Assembly: GCF_965363235.1 (NCBI RefSeq)
Contig: NC_134842.1
Span: 33,976,757 to 34,040,756, forward strand
Direction of reading: 5' to 3'
Length of the DNA stretch: 64,000 nucleotides
Source: Mytilus galloprovincialis
Taxonomy: Eukaryota
The notes under the pieces are model-generated. The model was not told the DNA's origin. It saw nothing but the letters and a program-made list of their open reading frames with translations, and did no database searches. Of this stretch, positions 7,939 to 24,688 are shown piece by piece (the first letter of the stretch is position 1; each line of letters begins with the position of its first letter). The translations under genes were made by a program, and so were the position numbers.

Positions 7939-8250
7939 GTATGTACTGATGTAACAGGGAATGAAATATGGAATAAACACTTATTGTTTTCCCTTTATGA
8001 ATAAAAGAAAAACGTTTCTGGGGAACACATCTTCACTTTGATTTCTTAAAATCCTTTCCTTACTTCCTTTCTATTTCACTTTTATTCAACAAAATATGAT
8101 TCTGACTCAGTGCAGTTCATACTCATGCACTCTTCCGAGTTTCATTTTACAAGTTATGAAAATATTCAATTTGAGTACAGCTCAGATTCGCTTAATTTCT
8201 GGTCAGAAGAAGTACCGATTGAGTCAAATAGAGTTCTGATCAGATTATAT

Positions 8251-8320
8251 GGAAATTCAATTGAATTGAGCAGAAGAGCTGAGTTGGCTGCTACCACTTG
8301 AATGCTCAATTCAATTCATT
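8251..8320. repeat. Small hairpin whose loop carries a perfect 27-nt inverted copy of the exon-3 5' end (8274-8300 = reverse complement of 7138-7164). It is flanked by a 14-bp stem (attcaattgaattgagca / tgctcaattcaatt).
   Basis: Seen directly. It explains the shared peptide [10 protein letters not shown] in track ORFs 7118-7321(-) and 8110-8301(+). Confidence 0.8.
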
Positions 8321-8513
8321 TTACTGGACAAGAAAAAAAAATCAAGCAAGTCTTTTCTACATTTGGTTTTCCGTTGAATACCTCAAATAAGTGATGCCCA
8401 AAACAGGTCAATCCACAGTCTTCATACTAAGCAATAGACCAATACTTAAGTAATTGCCATTGTTTTTATACGACCGCAAAATTTGAAAAATTTTTCGTCG
8501 TATATTGCTATCA

Positions 8514-8542
8514 CGTCGTCGTCGTCGTCGTCGTCGTCGTCC
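8514..8542. repeat. (CGT)9 microsatellite at the 5' end of element copy A. Shorter (CGT)n at 11083-11098 and 22875-22905 in copies B and C.
   Basis: Seen directly. It generates the poly-Arg run in the spurious ORF 8408-8623(-). Confidence 0.9.
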
Positions 8543-8555
8543 GAATACTTTTAGT

Positions 8556-9165
8556 TTTCGCACTCTAACTTGAGTAAAAGTGAATAGAAATCTATGAAAT
8601 TTTAACACAAGGTTTATGACCACAAAAGGAAGGTTGGGATTGATTTTGGGAGTTTTGGTCCCAACATTTTAGGAATTAGGGGCCAAAAAGGGCCCAAATA
8701 AGCATTTTCTTGGTTTTCGCACTATAACTTTAGTTTAAGTTAATAGAAATCTATGAAATTTTGACACAAGGTTTATGACCACAAAAGAAAGGTTGGTATT
8801 GATTTTGGGAGTTTTGGTTCCAACAGTTTAGGAATTAGGGGCCAAAAAAGGGCCCAAATAAGCATTATTCTTGGTTTTCGCACAATAACTTTAGTTTAAG
8901 TAAATAGAAATCAATGAAATTTAAACACAATGTTTATGACCACAAAAGGAAGGTTGGTATTGATTTTGGGAGTTTAGGTCCCAACAGTTTAGGAATTAGG
9001 GGCCAAAAAGGGACCCAAATAAGCATTTTTCTTGGTTTTCGCACCATAACTTTAGTATAAGTAAATAGAAATCTATGAAATTTAAACACAAGGTTTATGA
9101 CCATAAAAGGAAGGTTGGTATTGATTTTGGGAGTTTTGGTCCCAACAGTTTAGGAATAAAGGGCC
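8556..9165. repeat. Satellite, ~160-163-bp unit x ~3.7 (ttttcgcac.ataactt.agt.taagt.aatagaaatctatgaaatttaaacacaaggtttatgaccacaaaaggaaggttgg.attgattttgggagttttggtcccaacagtttaggaattaggggccaaaaagggcccaaataagcatt...)
   Basis: Unit starts at 8556, 8719, 8879 and 9042. The same satellite is at 11125-11400 (copy B) and 22935-23215 (copy C), and an inverted fragment at 22665-22715. Confidence 0.85.
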
Positions 9166-9712
9166 CAAAGGGTCCAAAATTAAACTTTGTTTGATTTCAT
9201 CAAAAATTGAATAATTGGGGTTCTTTGATATGCCGAATCTAACTGTGTATGTAGATTCTTAATTTTTGGTCCCGTTTTCAAATTGGTCTACATTAAGGTC
9301 CAAAGGGTCCAAAATTAAACTTAGTTTGATTTTAACAAAAATTGAATCCTTGGGGTTCTTTGATATGCTGAATCTAAAAATGTACTTAATTTTTTTATTA
9401 TTGGCCCAGTTTTCAAGTTGGTCCAAATCGGGGTCCAAAATTAAACTTTGTTTGATTTCATCAAAAATTGAATAATTGGGGTTCTTTGATATGCCAAATC
9501 TAACTGTGTATGTAGATTCTTAATTTTTGGTCCCGTTTTAAAATTGGTCTACATTAAAGTCCAAAGGGTCCAAAATTAAACTAAGTATGATTTTAACAAA
9601 AATTGAATTCTTGGGCCTCTTTGATATGCTGAATCTAAACATGTACTAAGATTTTTGATTATGGGCCCAGTTTTCAAGTTGGTCCAAATCAGGATCCAAA
9701 ATTATTATATTA
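9164..9712. repeat. Satellite, ~133-bp unit x ~4 (ggtccaaaattaaactttgtttgatttcatcaaaaattgaataattggggttctttgatatgc.gaatctaa...ttggtc.acatt.aggtccaaagg)
   Basis: Periodicity 9164/9298/9432/9566. Also present at 11405-11690 and 11880-12120 in copy B, and 23200-23960 in copy C. Confidence 0.85.
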
Positions 9713-9713
9713 A

Positions 9714-9930
9714 GTATTGTGCAATAGCAAGAAATTTTCAATTGCACAGTATTCAGCAATAGCAAGAAATCTTCAATTGCACAGTATTGTGCAATAGCAA
9801 GAAATCTTCAATTGCACAGTATTGTGCAATAGCAAATATTTTCAATTGCACAGTATTGCACAATAGCAAGAAATATCTAATTGCACAATATTGTGCAATA
9901 GCAAGAAATTCCAATTGGATTTCAATTGGA
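9714..9930. repeat. 35-bp tandem repeat x ~6 in which every unit is itself a hairpin (tattgTGTGCAATagcaagaaat.ttcaATTGCACAg)
   Basis: Seen directly. 8-bp complementary arms tgtgcaat/attgcaca within each unit. The same array is at 11693-11880 in copy B. Confidence 0.85.
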
Positions 9931-10597
9931 GTTATCTTTCTTTGTCCAGAATAGTAGTTGAATCAACTTAAATCATTGTTTTATACAATATACAATGTAT
10001 ATTCACTTTTACTACCAACTGATAGATTAAAACAATCTTTACCATTCAGTGATAGCAAGCACTTTTTTTACATTTTAATATTTTATGATGTATTTAAATG
10101 AGTAGTTATTGTTGCAAACTTCATTAGAAATTTGAATTGAGATCAGTTTTGAAATAAGGGAAAGGGGGATGTGAAAAAAAAATTGGGGGGTCAATTTTTT
10201 TCATTTCAGATTTCATAAATAAAAAGAAAATTTCTTCAAACATTTTTTTGAGAGGATTAATATTCAACAGCATAGTGAATTGCTCAAAGGCAAAAAAAAA
10301 TTTTTTAAGTTCATTAGACCACATTCATTCTGTGTCAGAAACCTATGCTGTGTCAACTATTTAATCACAGTCCAAATTTAGATCTGAATCCAGCTTGAAT
10401 GTTGTGTCCATACTTGCCCCAACCGTTCAGGGTTCAACCTCTGCGGTCGTATAAAGCTGCGCCCTGCGGAGCATCTGGTTGAAACTTAACGCCTACTGAA
10501 AAGAAATGTTAATGGTGCGATGGTTGAAAAACAGTTTCCAAGTTTTCTAATTGACCACAAAGACATTTTTTGTAATATACTTACGGTTTGATTTCAG

Positions 10598-10708
10598 GTT
10601 GTTGGAGTCGTCAACATCACCACACTTACCACAAGACAATATTGTATCATTCTTGACCCTTCCGATGAACATGGCAGACTACAACTGGGTAGAAAGAAAT
10701 TAGTTAAG
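10598..10708 (+). CDS. MVP: MVP exon 5: [37 protein letters not shown]
   Basis: Acceptor gatttcag|gtt; donor aag|gtaaat. Matches human [37 protein letters not shown]. Not in the ORF track because it lacks an ATG and is short. Confidence 0.85.
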
Positions 10709-11042
10709 GTAAATACAATGTTAGATGAATTAGCATAGATAATATTCTGTATAACTAAGTTTCATCAATGTATGCTATTGCATAGTATATAACACGTTAA
10801 TATTAATAAATTGGCATGCAACATGTTTATGTCAATAAAGTATTTTGAACCGTGACGAAAACGCCCTGTTATTATGTCATATGTACGGTGTATTTCTTAT
10901 TGCACCATCTCTAAAAGAATACTTAGTAATTGGCCGTTTGAACTTTCAAAATCTAAAGAATCATGGGTAATTTCATTGTTCGTACCCCAAAATGAAAATA
11001 ACGTCACGTCATTGGTTGATTTCCATTGTTTATAATATTTTT

Positions 11043-12708
11043 ATACGACCGCAAACGGTAGTATATTGGTATATGACGTTGGCGTCGTCGTCGTCGTCCG
11101 AAGACACATCGGTTTTCGCACTATAACTTTATTTTAAGTGAATAGAAATCTACGAAATTTAAAAACAAGGTTTATGACCACAAAAGGAAGGTTTGGATTG
11201 ATTTTGGGAGTTTTGGTCCTAACAGTTTAGGAATTAGGGGCCAAAAAAGGGCCCAAAATAAGCATTTTTCTTGGTTTTCGCACAATAACTTTAGTATAAG
11301 TAAATAGAAATCAATGAAATTTAAACACAAGGTTTATGACCACAAAAGGAAGGTTTGGATGGATTTTGGGAGTTTTGGTCCCAACAGTTTAGGAATTAGG
11401 GGGTCCAAAGGGTCCAAAATTAAACTTTGTTTGATTTTATCAAAAATTGAATAATTGGTTTTCTTTGATATGCCGAATCTAACCGTGTATGTAGATTCTT
11501 AATTTTTGGTCCTGTTTTAAAATTGGTCTACATTAAGGTCCAAAGGGTCCAAAATTAAACTTGATTTTAACAAAAAATTAATTCTTGGGGTTCTTTGATA
11601 TGCTGAATCTAACATGTACTTAGATTTTTGATTATGGGCCCAGTTTTCAAGTTGGTACAAATCGGGGTCCAAAATTATTATATTAAGTATTGTTCAATAG
11701 CAAGAAATTTTCAATTGCACAGTATTGCGCAATAGCAAGAATTCTTCAATTTGCACAGTATTGTGCAATAGCAAGAAATATCTAATTGCACAATATTGCA
11801 CAATAGCAAGAAATTTTCAATTGCACAGTTTTGAGCAATAGCAAGAAATATTCAATTGCACAGTATTGTCCCGTTTTCAAATTGGTCTACATTAAGGTTC
11901 AAAGGGTCAAAAATTAAACTTTGAAAAAAATTGAATATATGGGGTTCTTCAATATGCTGAATCTAACCATGTATTTAGATTTTTAATATTTGCGCCCGGT
12001 TATCAAATTGGTCCACTTTGAGGTTTAAAGGGTCTAAAATTGAACATTATTTACTTTTATCAAAATTGAATTCTTGGGGTTCTATGATATGCTGAATCTA
12101 ACCATGTATTTAGATATTGGACCATAATAGGTAAATGTCCAATTTAGAATTTTTAAGTTTTTAAGTTCAAGTTCTTAGACCACATTCATTCTGTGTCAGA
12201 AACCTATGCTGTGTCAACTATTTAATCACAATCCAAATTCAGAGCTGTATCAAGCTTAAATGTTGTGTCCATACTTGCCCCAACTGTTCATGGTTAGACC
12301 TCTGCGGTCGTATGAAGCTGCGCCCTGCGGAGCATCTGGTTGATATTTTGGCCCGGTTATCAAATTGGTCCACATTGAGGTCTAAAGGGTCCAAAATTGA
12401 ACTTTATTTGATTTCATCAAAAATTGAATTCTTGGGGTTCTTTGATATGCTGAATCTAACCATGTATTTGTATTTTGGATATTGGACCATAATAGGTAAA
12501 TGTCCAATTTAGAATTTTTAAGTTTTTAAGTTCAAGTTCTTAGACCACATTCATTCTGTGTCAGAAACCTATGTTGTGTCAACTATTAAATCACAATCCA
12601 AATTCTGAGCTGTATCAAGCTTGAATGTTGAGTCCATACTTGCCCCAACTGTTCAGTGTTCGACCTCTGCGGTCGTATAAAGCTGCGCCCTGCGGAGCAT
12701 CTGGTTAA
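11043..12708 (+). mobile_element. Helitron/Helentron-like element copy B (in MVP intron 5) with a tandemly duplicated 3' terminal module (two complete 3' ends ending at ~12341 and ~12708)
   Basis: Same 5' terminus TATACGACCGCAAACGG plus (CGT)n. The 3' end ...ctctgcggtcgtat.aagctgcgccctgcggagcatctggtt occurs twice ~367 bp apart, each preceded by the same ~330-bp 3' module (gaccacattcattctgtgtcagaaacctatg.tgtgtcaactatt.aatcaca.tccaaatt...). Confidence 0.6.
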
Positions 12709-12978
12709 CCAATCACGAAGTTTTGGCGTACACTTTTGAAAATATTACCCAGGATGCATTAGATTCTGAAACGGCGAATTGTCAATTAACAAGTCCGCGT
12801 TCAGATCAGCATCTTTACATTGTGTATTTTACAAAAGACATTCTTTTTCCTCAATGTCAAGGCAACTCAACAGCTGAAAGCTGATCTTTAACTTAACTTT
12901 AACGTTATCATCGAGGGCATCTTTCTTAATTCCCCGAGTATATAATTATTCTTATTTTATATAATTGTATTTTTATAG

Positions 12979-13104
12979 GGTGAGTGTTCCTTCTTTTTGT
13001 TACCTGGAGAACGATTTGAGAGAGGTATCCAGAATGTCTATGTACTAGGAGAAGATGAAGGTGTTATTCTACGAGCCACAGAATCATTCATTGATAAAGC
13101 TGCT
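12979..13104 (+). CDS. MVP: MVP exon 6: [42 protein letters not shown]
   Basis: Acceptor ttttatag|ggt; donor gct|gtgagt. Matches human [39 protein letters not shown]. Confidence 0.85.
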
Positions 13105-16092: not shown

Positions 16093-16678
16093 CAAAGGAG
16101 TAGGTCCGGTAAGGACCGATTTTGGCCTCAAATTTCAGTTTCATCTGACGAAAGATTTTGACCACTTTTTAAACACTTAAGTGTTTATTTCATATGATGC
16201 AATTAATTTATGTGAAAGATTTTAACTTATTAAGTCATTAAAAACGATCCGATTCTGGCTCAAATATGAGAAATCTACCAAATATGCGAAAAATTGTCAC
16301 TTTTCAGATGGTTTTTGTCAAAAACGAAAGTGGCCGCATCCGTGTTCATCCTCAATCTTTATATATGTTATGTATTATCATTAAATACAACTTCCATTTC
16401 AATATTTTGGATGAACACGAATGCGGCCACTTTCATTTTACACGGAAACCGTCTAAAATTTAACTAAAATGCTGGAATTGTGAAGATTTCAGTAATTTAG
16501 CATGAATTAATGGTGCTAGTTCTCAATATATGTGCATTGTATTGTCATTAAGAGCCCATATTTATGTAGCAGAACCTTTCTACTATCCAATAAATGACTA
16601 AAAGTTTACATTTTAACAATTTTGTAAAACTGCTATATTTTGGGGCCAAAAAGGGGTCTTACTGGACCTACTCCTTTG
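16093..16678 (+). mobile_element. 586-bp MITE, copy 1 (inside MVP intron 10). ~35-bp imperfect TIRs caaaggagtaggtccggtaaggacc...ggtcttactggacctactcctttg. It also has an internal 26-bp-arm palindrome (gaaagtggccgcatccgtgttcatcc ... ggatgaacacgaatgcggccactttc).
   Basis: Terminal inverted repeats and the internal palindrome seen directly. No credible coding capacity. Second copy at 19701-20286 in opposite orientation. Confidence 0.75.
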
Positions 16679-17863: not shown

Positions 17864-19700
17864 ATTGGAATGTGCTTTTCTTATTAACATTAGTAATTTT
17901 GTGAAGAAAGTATTTTGTTTTGTAAAATTTATCATTTGAATATATTACATGTTATTGATACTAACATTATAAACAATTTGAACATGACATGGTATATCTT
18001 TGTTATATTTATTTATAACTGATGACATTGTATAATTTATAAACTTTGAAACGATGTGTGATAGAGGCGGGCTGATTTGTGTATTGTTTAGATGAGAAGG
18101 GGATAGTGTCAGAGAGTATGATGTTTTTTATATTTCAAAAAGTGATAGATATGTATGTTTTGTATATTTGATAGGTCTTTTTGTTACCTGGTCTTAACGT
18201 GTTAGGTCTATGGTCACTTTTATACGCTAATTTATCAAAATATTTAGTATATGTGCAATACATTTTTTTTGTATTTTAATAGTTTTCTTTATCACAACAT
18301 TGTTTGTTACTCATTTTTCTGAGATTTCAGAGATCAATTTCCATGAGTTATGTTTGTATATGTTATTTTACAATTAAATGTTTATAAATAAATAATCTTG
18401 ACTTGTGTTTCACTGGCATGGATCTCCCTTCCAATAGAACTCTGAGTATTCGGAACATTCTCCACGAGGGTCGTATTGACACAAAATGCACAAGAAAACA
18501 TTATCATAACATATTAATAATGACAAGAAATACCGTGAAATCGTACAAAATTTATAGAATAGTTTATGAAATTATTATTGAAATATATCTTACGTACAAT
18601 AATTAGGTCATACCACTCCAGTGACAAATTGAAATGAACGGGGCGTCAACAAGTTGTAGTAACATTCATGATATCAAATCTAATGCACCAGATGAGTATT
18701 TAGTCAATTAATGTCTCATTAGCAATGCTCGAAGCCAAAATATTTGAAAGTCAAAAACTAATACAGACGTTGAAAAGCCGATAAAACAAAAACAAAAAGG
18801 ACCAAAAAGTAAAGCCAAACCCGGAAAAGGAATCAGAGCTCGGTATAACCAGAAACAAGCATGAACGAATAACATACTAGTAATAATCTATAATCTAGAG
18901 TTGCTATCCCTAGTTAAATGTACTAAATAAACCATTACGAAGGAACGGTAGGTAATGTTGAAAACCCTCTGCGAATGACAGTTCACCAAAAGTGTTATCA
19001 AATAAAGTTAAGCGCAAAATTGTATGCAACATTGGCTTTTGTGTGGGTCATGTTCGCTTGATTAATTTATTTTTAACTTGTTTGTTGCTTGCTCAACGTG
19101 CAAGAAGAAACTAATTATTTTGTAAACGAAACGCGTGTCTTGCTTACTAATGTTTAATCCTGGTATCTATGATGTATTGAGTTTAGATACAACCTTTGGG
19201 TCGATGCCACTGCTGGTGGAGGTTTTTTCACCGATGGTATCACCAGCCCAGTAGTTAGCACTTTAGTGTTGACATGAATTATCATTGGTATGGTCCCAAT
19301 TATAAATTAACGGTTTACAAAACTTTTTTTCCTCAGGAATAGATTACCTTGGCTTTATTTGGCAAAACCTTTCGGAATTGTGGGTGACCAATGCTCTTCG
19401 ACTTTAACCTTATTTGGCCTTTTTTACTGTGTTGATTCGAGCGTCACGTGCACTGAAAATGCGCGTCTGGCGTACAAATTTTAATTCTGGTACGTATGAT
19501 GAGTTTATTCAATACCAATTTGTTATTTTTAGAGAAGTATTGATATATTCTTCTTCGTTCAAGTTCTTATGATTTTTTTTATTCGGACTTGCATGTTTAA
19601 TTGGGAAACAATTATTTGAGGAAAGCGTAATCAAAACAGCTTAAAATACAGTTAAGTAAAATCTTATATAATCTAATAAAAAAATGCCATGCTCACTAAA

Positions 19701-20286
19701 CAAAGGAGTAGGTTCAGTAAGACCCCTTTTTGGCCCCAAAATGTAGCAGTTTTACAAAATTGTTAAAATGTAAACCTTTAGTTATTTATTGGACAGTAGA
19801 ATGCTTCTGCTACATAAATATGGGCTGTTTTTGACAATACAATGCACATATATCCGGTACTAGCACCATTAAGTCATGTTAAATTACTGAAATCCTAATA
19901 ATTCTAGCATTTTAGTTAAATTTTAGACGGTTTTCGTGTAAAACGAAAGTGGCCGCATTCGTGTTCATCCTTGATATTGAAATGTAATTTGTATTTTATG
20001 ATAATACATAACATATATAAAGGTTGAGGATGAACACGGATGCGACCACTTTCATTTTTACCAAAAACCATCTGAAAAGTGACATTTTTCGGCATATTAG
20101 GTAGATTTTTCATATTTGAGCTTGAATCGGATCGTTTTTAATGACTAAATCTGTTAAAATCTTTCACACAAACTAATTAATTCAAATAAAATAGACACTT
20201 AAGTGTTTAAAAAGTGGTCAAAATCTTTCGTCAGATGAACCTGAAATTTGAGGCCAAAATCGGTCCTTACCGGACCTAATCCTTTT
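19701..20286 (-). mobile_element. 586-bp MITE, copy 2, inverted relative to copy 1, located ~1.8 kb downstream of the MVP stop codon
   Basis: Reverse complement of 16093-16678 along its whole length (~90% identity). Track ORFs 16266-16463(+) and 19916-20113(-) translate to near-identical peptides, which gives the pair away. Confidence 0.75.
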
Positions 20287-22200: not shown

Positions 22201-22285
22201 GTCGAAAACGTAGAAAATATTTCATTCATCGACGACTTTGACTGATAATGAACCCGTTTTTTATGCTAGTACTGAGGAACTGACT

Positions 22286-22665
22286 ACTGGGCCGGTATAA
22301 CCTTCGGGGACTAACAGGTGGTAATAATTAACGGTACAAATTTTACTGCACCAGATGCGTATTTCGAAGACACAGTGGTTTTCGCACGACGACGACGATG
22401 ACGACGCCAACGTCATACCAATATACGACCGCACACAATTTGCATAAAAACAAGTGCAAACATCTTTAAGATAAATTATAATTGGTGTCAACTGGTTCAA
22501 AAGTTAAACAGTTAAATATATATTATTCTGTTCCAAAGTTTGTAGGACGACCTCGAGCATCGGTGGAGACATTAATTGTCGAAATACGCATCTGGTGCAG
22601 TAAAATTTGTACCGTTAATTATTACCACCTGTTAGTCCCCGAAGGTTATACCGGCCCAGTAGACC
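22286..22665. repeat. Inverted-repeat structure immediately upstream of element copy C. Arms of ~95 bp (22286-22378 vs 22565-22660) enclose an inverted fragment of the element's 5' end (22370-22434 = reverse complement of gcggtcgtatat..ggtatgac..ggcgtcgtc).
   Basis: Seen directly. Track ORFs 22261-22500(-) and 22482-22772(+) share the peptide EIRIWCSKICTVNYYHLLVPEGYTGPV because they read the two arms. Confidence 0.75.
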
Positions 22666-22852
22666 AACACTCCCAAAATCAATCCCAACCTTCCTTTTGT
22701 GGTCATAAACCTTGTGTCTCTAAAAGAATACTTGGTAATTGGACGTTTCAAAATCTAAAGAATCATGGGTAATTTCATTGTTCGTACCCCAAAATGAAAA
22801 TAACGTCACGTCATTGGTTGATTTCCATTGTTTATGACATTTTATACGACCG

Positions 22853-24177
22853 CAAACGGTCGTATAATATTGGTATGACTTTGGCGTCGTCATCGTCGTC
22901 GTCGTCGTCCGAAGACACATCGGTTTTCGCACTATAACTTGAGTTTAAGTGAATAGAAATCTGTGAAATTTAAACACAAGGTTTATGACCACAAAAGGAA
23001 GGTTGGGATTGATTTTAGGAGTTTTGGTCCCAACAGTTTAGGAATAAGGGGCCAAAAAGGGCCCAAATAAGCATTTTTCTTGTTTTTCGCACAATTACTT
23101 TAGTATAAGTTAATAGAAATCTATGAAATTTTAACACAAGGTTTATGACCACAAAATGAAGGTTTGGTTTTATTTTGGGAGTTTTGGTCCCATCGAATTA
23201 GAGGCCAAAAGGGTCCAAAATTAAACTTTGTTTGGTTTCATCAAAAAATGTATTATTGGGGTTCTTCGATATGCCAAATCTTACCGTGTATTCAGATTCT
23301 TAATTTCTGGTCCTGTTTTCAAATTGGTCTACATTAAGGTCCAAAGGGTCCAAAATTAAACTCAGCTTGATTTTAACAAAAATTGAATTCTTGGGGTTCT
23401 TTGATATGCTGAATCTAAACATGTACTAAGATTTTTGATTATGGGCCCAGTTTTCAAGTTGGTTTAAATCGGGGTCCAAAATTAAACTTTGTTTGATTTC
23501 AACAAAAATTGAATCATTGGGGTTCTTTGATATGCTGAATCTAAACATGTATTAAGATTTTTGCTTATAGACCCAGTTTTCAAGTTGGTCCAAATCGGGG
23601 TCCAAAATTAAACTTTGTTTGATTTCAACATTAATTGAATCCTTGGGGTTCTTTGATATGCTGAATCTAAAAATGTATTTATATTTTTTATTATAGTCCC
23701 AGTTTTCAAGTTGGTCCAAATCGGGGTCCTTAATTAAACTTTGTTTGATTTCAACCAAAAATGAATATATGGGGTTCCTTGATATATGCTGAATCTAACC
23801 ATGTATTTATATTTTTGATATTTTGGCCCGGTTATCAAATTGGTCCACATTGAGGTCTAAAGGGTCCAAAATAGAACTTTATTTGATTTCATCAAAAATT
23901 GAATTCATTGGGTTCTTTGATATGGTGAAACCATATATCTAGATTTTGGATATTGGACCATAATAGGTAAATGTCCAATTTAAAATGTTTAAGTTTTTAA
24001 GTTTAAGTTCTTAGACCACATTCATTCTGTGTCAGAAACCTATGTTGTGTCAACTATTTAATCACAATCCAAATTCAGAGCTGTATCAAGCTTGAATGTT
24101 GTGTCCATACTTGCCCCAACTGTTCAGGGTTCCACCTCTGCAGTCGTATAAAGCTGTGTCCTGCAGAGCATCTGGTT
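22853..24177 (+). mobile_element. Helitron/Helentron-like element copy C (downstream of MVP), same termini and internal satellites as A and B. Its 3' end shows CpG-to-TpG/CpA changes relative to A and B.
   Basis: 5' end ttttatacgaccgcaaacggtcg plus (CGT)n. 3' end ctctgcagtcgtataaagctgtgtcctgcagagcatctggtt, versus ctctgcggtcgtataaagctgcgccctgcggagcatctggtt in A and B. Confidence 0.6.
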
Positions 24178-24688
24178 ATTTACATAGTATTGTCTATAGT
24201 ATCTTCTTCTGCTATGTACTTGGAAAGAATATAAGATATTGCTACCAAATGATCGATGCAAGCTCATTCCTAAAATAGTCATATACCTAAAACTACCGAT
24301 AAAATAGTGTTTTAAAATGCACAACTTCTACCGAGTTTACATAAGTTATAACGTGTAACTGTATCCACAATGGTCGGCTTACTAATCATGGTCAGTCCAT
24401 ACAAAGGAAGATTCCCATTGCAAATAGTGGTTAGGCCATAGTTGTTTTTTTATTTGTTTTGCGTCCGCGTGCGGGTAGGTTTTCTGCCAATTTGTGTCAA
24501 AAACAAACACAAACTTTTTTTTGTTCGTCAGTAGAAAATCCGTATTTTCCGGGTTTTTCCAGCCGTGTTTTTGTGTATTCTTATACTCAAATCTATTTTG
24601 CGCTTTAAATAACAAGTACGCTCCTTATTTAAAGCGTTTAAGCGATCTTGACTTCGATACATGTGAAAGCAGAAATGGCCAGTATAGG

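What the first reader, a model, noticed from the sequence alone, without database searches (positions are those of the whole stretch)
8467..12708. Satellite-carrying Helitron/Helentron-like non-autonomous elements in two consecutive MVP introns and again downstream (22853-24177)
Three copies share a 5' end TATACGACCGCA plus (CGT)n. They share a subterminal inverse TGCGGTCGTATA and a conserved tail ending ...gagcatctggtt. Internally they carry the same three satellite families (163 bp, ~133 bp, and 35-bp hairpin units). Copy B has two complete 3' ends in tandem (12341 and 12708), each with its own ~330-bp 3' module. Helitron-type rolling-circle elements are known to generate tandem 3' ends by termination read-through, and this family to carry satellite arrays, so these look like vehicles for spreading satellites into genes. 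Copies B and C also share ~125 bp of identical 5' flanking sequence (10910-11035 vs 22716-22845). So either the true 5' terminus lies further upstream or they inserted into the same pre-existing repeat.
Basis: partly seen in the sequence, partly recalled or inferred. Interest (0 to 1): 0.62.

Follow-up and report, generated by a model that had tools for sequence, protein, structure and literature searches.

The report
Satellite-carrying non-autonomous Helentron (HINE) copies
Three copies of a small, non-coding rolling-circle-type transposon (a HINE) that carries short satellite-like repeat arrays sit in two introns of the major vault protein gene and just downstream of it; this kind of element is already well described in bivalves and flies, so the finding is real but ordinary.

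Summary
Three same-strand copies (A 8467-10480, B 11042-12706, C 22843-24177) share a 12-nt 5' motif, its inverse 27 nt from the 3' end, and an identical tail ending CATCTGGTT. The order of parts matches the published definition of HINEs, the non-autonomous Helentrons (DINE-1, Pearl, MgE, DTC84, Cg_HINE). That order is 5' subTIR, complementary inverted repeat (IR), (CGT)n, tandem-repeat arrays, 3' subTIR, short palindrome. There is no target-site duplication, no terminal TIR and no coding capacity. A and B lie in consecutive MVP introns.

Corrections:
- Copy C lacks the 35-bp array.
- B ends at 12706, not 12708.
- The B/C shared flank is about 97% identical, with an indel.

New points:
- B's two 3' modules are 94% identical, no closer than copies at other loci. 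Their junction falls exactly at the terminus, so the duplication is as old as the insertion and linked to transposition.
- The shared ~130-bp upstream module (L0) has traces in A, and a diverged inverted copy follows B. The true 5' boundary stays unresolved.

No Rep/helicase partner is in the window and no exact empty site was found. Novelty is low; this is probably the Mytilus MgE-type family.

The parts
8441..8466 (+). Copy A: remnant of the upstream L0 module (AATACTTAAGTAATTG + CCATTG + T-run)
   Evidence: The 16-mer matches L0 positions 10-25 with one indel; 4 of 2000 shuffles reach the score. ATTgCCATTG plus the T-run aligns with the inner end of L0 in B and C.
8467..8478 (+). Copy A 5' subTIR TATACGACCGCA
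8496..8504 (+). Copy A IR (CGTCGTATA), complementary to the 5' subTIR; the two form a hairpin
   Evidence: -9.2 kcal/mol, z -3.8
8514..8541 (+). Copy A (CGT)9 microsatellite
8554..9169 (+). Copy A 161-163-bp tandem repeat, 3.8 units
   Evidence: 92% matches
9165..9704 (+). Copy A ~130-bp tandem repeat (261-bp higher-order unit x2.1)
9713..9917 (+). Copy A 35-bp hairpin-type tandem repeat, 5.9 units
9918..10295 (+). Copy A unique spacer, absent from B and C
   Evidence: no other match in the window
10296..10480 (+). Copy A right flank: 3' subTIR 10442-10453, palindrome 10456-10472, terminus ...CATCTGGTT at 10480
10908..11041 (+). L0 module upstream of copy B; starts TCTCTAAAAG and ends in a T-run
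11042..11110 (+). Copy B left flank: 5' subTIR 11042-11053, IR 11056-11065, (CGT)5 11083-11097
11111..11402 (+). Copy B 162-bp tandem repeat, 1.8 units
11402..11677 (+). Copy B ~130-bp tandem repeat, about 2 units
11686..11869 (+). Copy B 35-bp tandem repeat, 5.2 units
11977..12341 (+). Copy B first 365-bp 3' module: variant 130-bp unit plus right flank; 3' subTIR 12303-12314 (1 mismatch), palindrome 12317-12333, first terminus at 12341
12342..12706 (+). Copy B second 365-bp 3' module: 3' subTIR 12668-12679, palindrome 12682-12698, outer terminus at 12706
   Evidence: 94.1% identical to the first module
12707..12808 (-). Diverged inverted copy of L0 (L0') immediately 3' of copy B
   Evidence: score 45 against shuffles 18.1 +/- 2.5. 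I1: 62 nt, 71% complementary.: alignment.
22717..22842 (+). L0 module upstream of copy C
22843..22921 (+). Copy C left flank: 5' subTIR 22843-22854, IR 22857-22866 (perfect 10-bp hairpin), imperfect (CGT)n 22885-22908
   Evidence: -11.4 kcal/mol, z -6.0
22922..23205 (+). Copy C 163-bp tandem repeat, about 1.7 units
23211..23929 (+). Copy C ~126-130-bp tandem repeat, about 5.7 units; there is no 35-bp array
23990..24177 (+). Copy C right flank: 3' subTIR 24139-24150 (1 mismatch), palindrome 24153-24169 with CpG-to-TpG/CpA changes, terminus at 24177

Best explanation
A, B and C are copies of one family of HINEs. HINEs (Helentron-associated interspersed elements) are the non-coding, non-autonomous derivatives of Helentron / Helitron2-type rolling-circle transposons.

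**Shown here (structure).**
- Each copy has a left flank made of a 12-nt subTIR, a complementary IR that forms a hairpin, and a (CGT)n microsatellite.
- The centre holds two or three different tandem-repeat arrays, always in the same orientation.
- The right flank of about 185 bp ends with the inverse subTIR, a short palindrome, and ATCTGGTT.

**Inferred from what is established for Helitron/Helentron transposition.**
- A Rep/helicase protein encoded elsewhere in the genome recognises the two ends. It nicks at the 5' end, peels off one strand up to the 3' terminator (subTIR plus palindrome), and pastes it into T-rich DNA without duplicating the target.
- The internal arrays then grow and shrink by slippage or unequal exchange. 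This would explain 3.8, 1.8 and 1.7 units of the 163-bp repeat, 2 to 6 units of the 130-bp repeat, and presence or absence of the 35-bp array. The elements thereby seed satellite-like arrays in euchromatin and introns.

**B's double 3' end.** It is an old duplication of the last 365 bp whose junction is exactly the element terminus. It most likely arose during transposition or at insertion, by terminator bypass with re-copying or by a 5'-truncated tandem copy. Later unequal crossing-over is less likely.

**The ~130-bp L0 module.** It lies upstream of B and C, with a deleted version upstream of A. It is either a co-mobilised 5' leader or the arm of another repeat into which the family inserts. 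This point is unresolved.
For: **Motif statistics.** The 12-mer occurs 8 times against 0.02 expected. The 17-nt tail occurs 4 times against 0 expected.

**5' hairpins.** Stabilities are -6.4 to -11.4 kcal/mol, with z from -2.6 to -6.0.

**Repeats and ends.** The microsatellite and three tandem-repeat families are. The homology of four 3' ends stops at one base.

**Outside copies.** L001 ends ...CATCTGGTT|A and is 93-95% identical. L002 is a diverged relative, 79-84% identical, and ends ...CACCTGGTT|T.

**Negative features expected of a HINE.** There is no consistent TSD and no terminal TIR. Only four ORFs of 120 aa or more exist in the window (two are MVP-exon reading frames, none lies in the elements), and only MVP domains appeared among the ORF segments sent to Pfam. 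There is no tRNA or Rfam match.

**Published definition.** It matches point for point: 11-13-nt subTIR, IR 1-22 nt away, microsatellite in the left flank, central tandem repeats, 3' subTIR plus palindrome, T-rich/TT target, no TSD (PMC4067079 and PMC7492417).

**Related species.** A related MVP contig (L003) has introns of 472 and 313 nt where the window has 2658 and 2270 nt. The elements account for most of the excess.

**B's duplication.** B1-B2 identity is 94.1%, against B2-C 94.5% and B2-L001 95.1%.
Against: - No exact empty site was found, because the introns of L003 do not align. T|T insertion is therefore not shown.
- No autonomous Helentron is in the window or in any searched collection.
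- The 3' palindrome is only 3+3 bp with a mismatch and is no more stable than shuffles in copy A (z -0.66). It is also poorly kept in L002.
- All three copies have related sequence upstream of the 5' subTIR. Published HINEs have the subTIR 2-4 nt from the 5' end, so this is atypical.
- There are only three to five copies, so the termini rest on a small sample.
Confidence: 0.85

Rival explanations
1. The mobile unit is a TIR-bounded foldback or MITE-like repeat (arms L0 and L0'). It carries the HINE-like core as a nested passenger and moves by cut-and-paste. The subTIR structure would then be a relic of one ancestral insertion.
For: - B is bracketed by L0 (10908-11041) and a diverged inverted copy (12707-12808).
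- L0 accompanies B and C, and in deleted form A.
- L0 B-C identity (96.8%) equals left-flank identity (97.0%).
- Oyster HINEs are reported to sit inside other TEs, which may then drive their spread (PMC7492417).
Against: - C, A, L001 and L002 have no inverted L0 after the terminus.
- All five independent 3' ends stop at ...C(A/C)(T/C)CTGGTT rather than at an L0' end.
- L0 against L0' is only about 71-75% matched, while L0_B against L0_C is 97%. The right arm therefore looks much older than the left.
- No TSD is seen at the L0 start against the 3' flank.
Confidence: 0.08
2. The element is a canonical Helitron-type non-autonomous element (5' TC, 3' CTRR, A|T target) rather than a Helentron/Helitron2-type one.
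For: - If the two final T are host bases, the element ends in CTGG, which fits CTRR, with a hairpin 6 nt upstream.
- The L0 start is TCTCT..., preceded by A in copy B.
- Oyster HINEs are filed in Repbase as 'Helitron-N'.
Against: - The TT after CTGG is conserved in all six ends, including the internal B1 end and two outside contigs, so it belongs to the element.
- C's L0 is preceded by G, not A.
- At the subTIR the 5' end is T-run plus TA, not TC.
- SubTIR plus IR plus microsatellite is the Helentron/HINE signature, not the canonical Helitron one (PMC4067079).
Confidence: 0.05
3. The copies arose by local segmental duplication and recombination of a satellite-containing segment, not by transposition.
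For: - B and C lie 11.8 kb apart in the same orientation and share 130 bp of upstream sequence.
- The region upstream of C holds inverted duplicates of C's own parts.
Against: - The flanks diverge immediately beyond L0 and beyond the terminus.
- The same terminus occurs on unrelated contigs L001 and L002.
- A lies in a different intron with different flanks.
- The copies are 5-9% diverged and differ in array make-up.
Confidence: 0.02

Closest known systems
Cg_HINE elements of Crassostrea gigas (Vojvoda Zeljko et al. 2020, PMC7492417)
   Same: - The module order is the same: 11-12-nt 5' subTIR, 7-12-nt complementary IR 1-12 nt away, a short eroded microsatellite ending the left flank, satellite-like arrays of about 160-180 bp in fixed orientation, and a right flank of about 60 bp with the 3' subTIR plus palindrome.
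- Both have T-rich insertion sites and no TSD.
- Copies occur in non-coding parts of genes.
- Some oyster elements carry two unrelated arrays, and some are inserted in other TEs.
   Different: - Here up to three arrays (163, ~130/261, 35 bp) sit in one element.
- The microsatellite is a trinucleotide.
- The conserved right flank is about 185 bp.
- In copy A the IR lies 17 nt from the subTIR.
- No sequence similarity was found between the 163-bp and 130-bp units and the oyster monomers CgiSat01a/b (taken here to be Cg170/HindIII), 08 and 09.
- The subTIR sequences could not be compared, because Table S2 is illegible in the held copy.
MgE with satellites Mg1, Mg2 and Mg3 in HSP70 introns of Mytilus galloprovincialis (Kourtidis et al. 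2006); Pearl (Gaffney et al. 2003); DTC84 (PMC3879986)
   Same: - These are bivalve elements that carry satellites, sit in introns, and are listed as DINE-1-like/HINE.
- From my own memory of the 2006 abstract, not checked here, the three monomers are 169, 260 and 70 bp. That resembles the periods found here: 161-163, 261 and 69-71 (2 x 35).
   Different: - The 2006 paper and its sequences are not held, so identity is untested.
- PMC3879986 states that MgE lacks the microsatellite segment, whereas all three copies here have (CGT)n.
- The source organism of the window was not identified with these tools.
DINE-1 / HINE families of Drosophila, mite and mosquito (Thomas et al. 2014, PMC4067079)
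   Same: - Both have subTIRs, an IR next to the 5' subTIR, a microsatellite, central repeats, a 3' stem-loop 8-35 nt from the end, T strings at the boundaries, and no coding capacity.
- The 3' subTIR here is itself part of a small palindrome (CGACC...GGTCG; 7 bp in L002), as in the palindromic subTIRs of the mite families.
   Different: - There is no sequence relationship.
- The 3' subTIR here ends 27 nt from the end, against 38-60 nt in the mite.
- Related sequence of about 130 bp lies upstream of the 5' subTIR here, whereas published subTIRs lie 2-4 nt from the terminus.
Foldback or TIR elements that carry tandem repeats (for example Tetris of Drosophila virilis, cited in PMC7492417)
   Same: Copy B is bracketed by inverted L0 and L0' arms of about 100-130 nt, with tandem repeats between them.
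   Different: - The arms are only about 71-75% matched and are present on both sides in one of three copies.
- The conserved ends of the family are the subTIR and CATCTGGTT, not the arms.

Membership tests
HINE (non-autonomous Helentron / Helitron2 type) | Short (11-15 nt) inverted repeats, with the 3' one subterminal | tested here: met
   TATACGACCGCA and TGCGGTCGTATA are present in A, B (twice) and C with 0-1 mismatch. The 3' copy ends 27 nt before the terminus (I15/I17).
HINE (non-autonomous Helentron / Helitron2 type) | IR complementary to the 5' subTIR a few nt downstream (DINE-1 / Cg_HINE type) | tested here: met
   The hairpin is TATACGACCG-CAAA-CGGTCGTATA in C. It has one mismatch in B and a 17-nt spacer in A. 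z is -2.6 to -6.0.
HINE (non-autonomous Helentron / Helitron2 type) | Microsatellite at the end of the left flank, followed by central tandem repeats in fixed orientation | tested here: met
   (CGT)5-9 is followed by arrays of 163 bp, ~130 bp and (in A and B) 35 bp, all on the + strand.
HINE (non-autonomous Helentron / Helitron2 type) | Short palindrome or stem-loop 8-35 nt from the 3' terminus | tested here: inconclusive
   GCTGCGC-CCT-GCGGAGC lies 8 nt from the end. It is only 3+3 bp with a mismatch and is not more stable than shuffles in A (z -0.66). A second hairpin, CGACC/GGTCG, overlaps the subTIR (z -3.07 in B2) and is extended to 7 bp in L002.
HINE (non-autonomous Helentron / Helitron2 type) | No target-site duplication | tested here: met
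   The longest identical flank k-mers are 2-4 nt and are not consistent between copies, under either 5' boundary.
HINE (non-autonomous Helentron / Helitron2 type) | Insertion between T and T in T-rich DNA, shown by empty sites | not testable with these tools
   T-runs precede the subTIR and every end is ...GGTT. No alignable empty site exists: L003's introns are too diverged and the host genome is not in the collections.
HINE (non-autonomous Helentron / Helitron2 type) | 5' subTIR 2-4 nt from the 5' terminus | tested here: inconclusive
   B and C share about 130 bp upstream of the subTIR, A keeps two pieces of it, and B has an inverted copy after its 3' end. The 5' terminus cannot be fixed with three copies.
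HINE (non-autonomous Helentron / Helitron2 type) | No coding capacity; an autonomous Helentron (Rep/helicase, often with endonuclease) has the same ends | not testable with these tools
   No coding capacity is met: no ORF of 120 aa or more lies in the elements, and only MVP domains appeared among the submitted ORF segments. The partner is not in the window and the collections gave nothing. A Helentron-type sequence from Mytilus galloprovincialis is listed in PMC4067079 supplementary file 8.
Canonical Helitron (non-autonomous) | 5' TC, 3' CTRR, hairpin about 10 nt upstream, insertion between A and T | tested here: not met
   The conserved end is ...CTGGTT in six ends. The 5' end at the subTIR is T-run plus TA. 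At the L0 start, TC is preceded by A in B but by G in C.
TIR MITE (cut-and-paste) | Terminal inverted repeats at both extremities plus a TSD | tested here: not met
   The 3' extremity (GCATCTGGTT) has no complement at the 5' end, and there is no TSD. Only B has flanking inverted L0/L0' arms, about 71% matched.
MgE / Mg1-Mg3 of Mytilus galloprovincialis | Sequence identity to the deposited MgE and satellite monomers | not testable with these tools
   The paper is not held and no sequence is available. The resemblance of monomer lengths rests on memory only. The reported lack of a microsatellite in MgE differs from what is seen here.
Cg170/HindIII (BIV160-type) bivalve satellite | Monomer sequence similarity | tested here: not met
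   The 163-bp and 130-bp units scored no better than shuffles against CgiSat01a, 01b, 08 and 09 (sequences from PMC8268682 Data S1). I equate CgiSat01a/b with Cg170/HindIII from my own knowledge; the held file does not say so.

The most novel reading that the evidence does not exclude
The ~130-bp L0 module is not accidental flank. There are two possible readings.

- **Co-mobilised leader.** This HINE subfamily has recruited the arm of a foldback/MITE-like repeat as a new 5' leader that is copied with it.
- **Targeted insertion.** The family inserts preferentially at the centre of that palindromic repeat. In B the junctions are ...CATTGGTT|...|AACCAATC, the symmetry centre. That would fit an HUH nuclease acting on single-stranded hairpin loops.

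Either reading would be an unusual 5'-end or target behaviour for a Helentron-type element.
Probability: 0.25. Interest if true: 0.45.

Novelty: already known. Interest (0 to 1): 0.2.

Why it matters
The result matters little beyond annotation. It is a clear example of how HINEs plant short satellite-like arrays inside genes: about 3.8 kb of the two MVP introns is element DNA. The same element can carry three different arrays whose copy numbers differ between insertions.

Two details could interest transposon specialists if a genome-wide survey bears them out. One is the old, terminus-precise duplication of the 3' module. The other is the L0 leader or target association.

These loci should be masked as repeats in gene models and variant calls.

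Tried and rejected
**Searches for more copies.**
- The 3' tail pattern found one contig in metagenome contigs (L001) and none in genome contigs or viral contigs.
- A 5' pattern found none in genome or viral contigs.
- A protein-word search with the translated 3' module gave one diverged relative (L002).
- The translated L0 plus left flank gave nothing.
- Exact look-ups of two window ORFs were not on record, so the host genome is not in the collections.

**Empty site.** L003 is an MVP contig from a related species. It shows short introns, but they do not align with the window.

**Copy C inside a reverse-oriented 163-bp unit.** I tested this because it would have proved that L0 belongs to the insert. 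The 5' side is such a unit (54/56 identical), but the 3' flank scores no better than shuffles. I rejected the idea as unproven.

**Literature.**
- String searches for the terminal motifs gave only chance primer hits.
- A search for 'ApaI satellite' with Mytilus returned nothing.
- A search for Mg1/Mg2/Mg3 gave nothing relevant.
- Kourtidis 2006 is not held.
- The oyster subTIR table is illegible.

**Other element classes.**
- A relationship to Cg170 is rejected.
- A SINE or retroposon reading is rejected: no tRNA, no Rfam hit, and none of the ends read has a poly-A tail.
- A recent unequal crossover or an assembly artefact for B's duplication is rejected, because the two modules differ at 21 of 357 aligned sites.

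**Limit of the Pfam scan.** It covered only a hand-picked subset of stop-to-stop segments of 55 aa or more from 1-28 kb, plus one unit of the long array. It is not an exhaustive six-frame search.

Full report
**1. The observation**

I read 8200-13000 and 22500-24500 directly.

- The 12-mer TATACGACCGCA, allowing one mismatch, occurs eight times in the 64-kb window against 0.02 expected from shuffles. Three hits are on the + strand at 8467, 11042 and 22843. Four are on the - strand at 10442, 12303, 12668 and 24139. One extra + strand hit is at 22422.
- The tail CTGCGGAGCATCTGGTT, allowing up to two mismatches, occurs four times against none expected, ending at 10480, 12341, 12706 and 24177.
- A four-way alignment shows that homology stops at exactly the same base, after ...CATCTGGTT.
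- Tandem Repeats Finder reports (CGT)9, arrays of 161-163 bp, about 130 bp (with a 261-bp higher-order period) and 35 bp. It also reports a 365-bp unit repeated twice at 11986-12706.
- A BLAST of copy A against the window finds no other copies apart from two short fragments upstream of C.

The copies are therefore A 8467-10480, B 11042-12706 and C 22843-24177, all on the + strand.

Four details of the finding need correcting.
- The 35-bp units are in A and B only, not in C.
- B ends at 12706, not 12708.
- C starts at 22843, not 22853.
- The upstream module shared by B and C is 96.8% identical with 8 gap columns, not identical.

**2. Gene context**

The exons at 10598-10708 and from 12979 translate to major vault protein sequence. 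A 79-aa query from them hits Vault-domain proteins at E = 2e-32. ORF segments across 5.5-17.9 kb carry the Pfam domains Vault, Vault_2/3/4 and MVP_shoulder. The gene runs on the + strand from about 5526 to the stop after 17858.

- A lies in the intron 7940-10597.
- B lies in the next intron, 10709-12978.
- C lies about 5 kb downstream of the gene.

A 952-nt contig from another, more distant organism (L003) carries the same three exon pieces (86-100% identical). Its introns are 472 and 313 nt, against 2658 and 2270 nt here. The elements account for most of that excess. However, the introns themselves do not align, so L003 is not an exact empty site.

**3. Anatomy**

Each copy begins, after a run of 3-5 T, with the 12-nt motif.
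- 4 nt (B, C) or 17 nt (A) further on comes a complementary stretch. The two form a hairpin of -6.4 to -11.4 kcal/mol, with z from -2.6 to -6.0.
- Then come (CGT)5-9 and a short spacer.
- The arrays follow, always in the same order and orientation: 163-bp units (3.8, 1.8 and 1.7 copies), ~130-bp units (about 4, 2 and 5.7 copies), and in A and B five to six 35-bp units that each hold a 7-nt inverted repeat.
- A then has a 378-bp unique stretch. B and C instead have variant 130-bp units.

All copies end with a conserved right flank of about 185 bp, 91-95% identical between copies. Its last 39 nt are TGCGGTCGTATA-AA-GCTGCGCCCTGCGGAGC-ATCTGGTT.

The 163-bp and 130-bp units are distantly related to each other: score 81 against shuffles of 47 +/- 7.

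Copy C shows CpG-to-TpG/CpA changes in its last 40 nt. A belongs to a more divergent subfamily than B and C. Left-flank identity is 84-86% for A against B or C, and 97% for B against C.

**4. What it is**

The published definition of HINEs, the non-autonomous Helentrons, lists these features (Thomas et al. 2014, PMC4067079; Vojvoda Zeljko et al. 2020, PMC7492417):
- subTIRs of 11-13 nt
- an IR complementary to the 5' subTIR, 1-22 nt away
- a short microsatellite ending the left flank
- central tandem repeats
- a 3' subTIR followed by a short palindrome 8-35 nt from the end
- strings of T at the boundaries and insertion at TT
- no TSD and no coding capacity

Every feature that the sequence can show is present. 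There is no consistent flank duplication under either possible 5' boundary. The 3' extremity has no complement at the 5' end. The only ORFs of 120 aa or more lie outside the elements; two are MVP-exon reading frames and two lie in other frames. No tRNA or Rfam family is found.

The weakest hallmark is the terminal palindrome. It is 3+3 bp with a mismatch and is not more stable than shuffles in A. A second small hairpin, CGACC/GGTCG, overlaps the 3' subTIR. It is lengthened to 7 bp in the diverged relative L002, which recalls the palindromic subTIRs of mite HINEs.

Two outside contigs carry the same end.
- L001 is from a marine metagenome. It is 93-95% identical and ends ...CATCTGGTT|A.
- L002 is 79-84% identical and ends ...CACCTGGTT|T.

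This is therefore a dispersed family with a fixed 3' terminus, not a local duplication.

The mechanism is inferred from what is established for Helitron-type elements and is not shown here. A Rep/helicase supplied in trans would carry out rolling-circle 'peel and paste', initiating at the 5' end and terminating at the 3' subTIR and palindrome.

**5. The double 3' end of B**

The two 365-bp modules are 94.1% identical. That is no closer than B2 to C (94.5%) or B2 to L001 (95.1%). The duplication is therefore about as old as the copies themselves. It is neither a recent unequal exchange nor an assembly artefact.

The junction reads ...CATCTGGTT|GATATTTTGGCCCGG. The right-hand side is internal sequence that in C is preceded by TTTTT, so the breakpoint coincides with the element terminus to within the two T. 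A breakpoint at that exact base points to the transposition machinery. The candidates are terminator bypass followed by re-copying of the last 365 bp, or a 5'-truncated copy laid down in tandem.

The published remark on tandem Helitrons describes inner copies truncated at the 3' end. That is not the arrangement here.

**6. The upstream module L0**

- B and C share 126-134 bp directly upstream of the subTIR, starting at T|CTCTAAAAG. This module is as similar between B and C (96.8%) as the left flank is (97.0%).
- A keeps the inner 10 nt (ATTgCCATTG) next to its T-run. Immediately before that it has a 16-mer that matches L0 positions 10-25 with one indel; 4 of 2000 shuffles reach that score. A therefore looks like L0 with about 90 nt deleted.
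- The 100 nt that follow B's 3' end are a diverged inverted copy of L0, beginning at AACCAATCACG opposite ...CGTCATTGGTT. The score is 45 against shuffles of 18.1 +/- 2.5, and 62 nt are 71% complementary.
- No such inverted copy follows A, C, L001 or L002.

Two readings remain.
- L0 is copied together with the core. This is favoured by its presence at all three copies and by its equal divergence.
- L0 is the arm of a separate foldback/MITE-like repeat into which the family inserts. This is favoured by B's inverted arm. It also fits the oyster report that HINEs often sit in other TEs, which may then drive their spread.

Three copies cannot decide between them.

**7. Comparison with known elements, and novelty**

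The closest described relatives in kind are the Cg_HINE elements of the Pacific oyster, Pearl, DTC84 and MgE of bivalves, and DINE-1 of Drosophila.

MgE was found with three satellites in HSP70 introns of Mytilus galloprovincialis. From my memory of that abstract, the monomers are 169, 260 and 70 bp, close to the 161-163, 261 and 69-71 bp periods here. One secondary source says MgE lacks a microsatellite. Identity with MgE is therefore likely but untested.

The 163-bp unit is not related to the oyster monomers I took to be Cg170/HindIII.

No autonomous partner is in the window. A Helentron-type sequence from M. galloprovincialis is listed in the supplement of Thomas et al..

The kind of element, its satellite cargo and its presence in introns are all already described. 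I rate the finding real, correctly interpreted in the main, and of low novelty.

Noticed in passing
window 24684-64000: A tandem array of at least 39 kb made of 1748/1749-bp units runs to the end of the window. Six of the 23 complete units are a 1291/1292-bp deletion variant. Units are 99.8-100% identical and GC is 30%. The ORF segments of the unit have no Pfam match, and the period is too long for TRF. The array starts about 500 bp after copy C. It could be a very young macrosatellite or an assembly artefact.
   Followed up: partly
window 22284-22717: A perfect 84-nt inverted repeat (22284-22367 / 22579-22662) has 211 nt between its arms. The interior holds an inverted copy of copy C's own left flank and microsatellite (22386-22424, 97% complementary to 22867-22905). 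Next to it, 22662-22717 is the reverse complement of C's first 163-bp unit (54/56 identical) and abuts L0 of C. This is a local inverted rearrangement or nest of element pieces.
   Followed up: partly
window 16094-16676 (-) and 19694-20285 (+): Two inverted copies of another interspersed repeat of about 590 bp bracket the 3' end of the MVP gene. Both are about 87% identical to L002 1182-1775, so the family is shared with the organism that carries the diverged HINE relative.
   Followed up: no
L001 518-1496: The metagenome contig that carries the element's 3' part continues into unrelated sequence. The contig has only 1.8x coverage (contig name), so it may be a chimeric assembly. Its 3' flank should be used with caution.
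   Followed up: no
window 10990-11017 and 22791-22818 (inside L0): L0 contains ACGTCACGTCATTGGTT. Its end, CATTGGTT, resembles the element's own terminus, CATCTGGTT. In B the inverted arm starts exactly opposite this motif. This may be chance or a clue to target choice.
   Followed up: no
window 8554-9704: The 163-bp and ~130-bp repeat units of the element are distantly similar in the same orientation: score 81 against shuffles of 47 +/- 7. The arrays may share an origin.
   Followed up: partly
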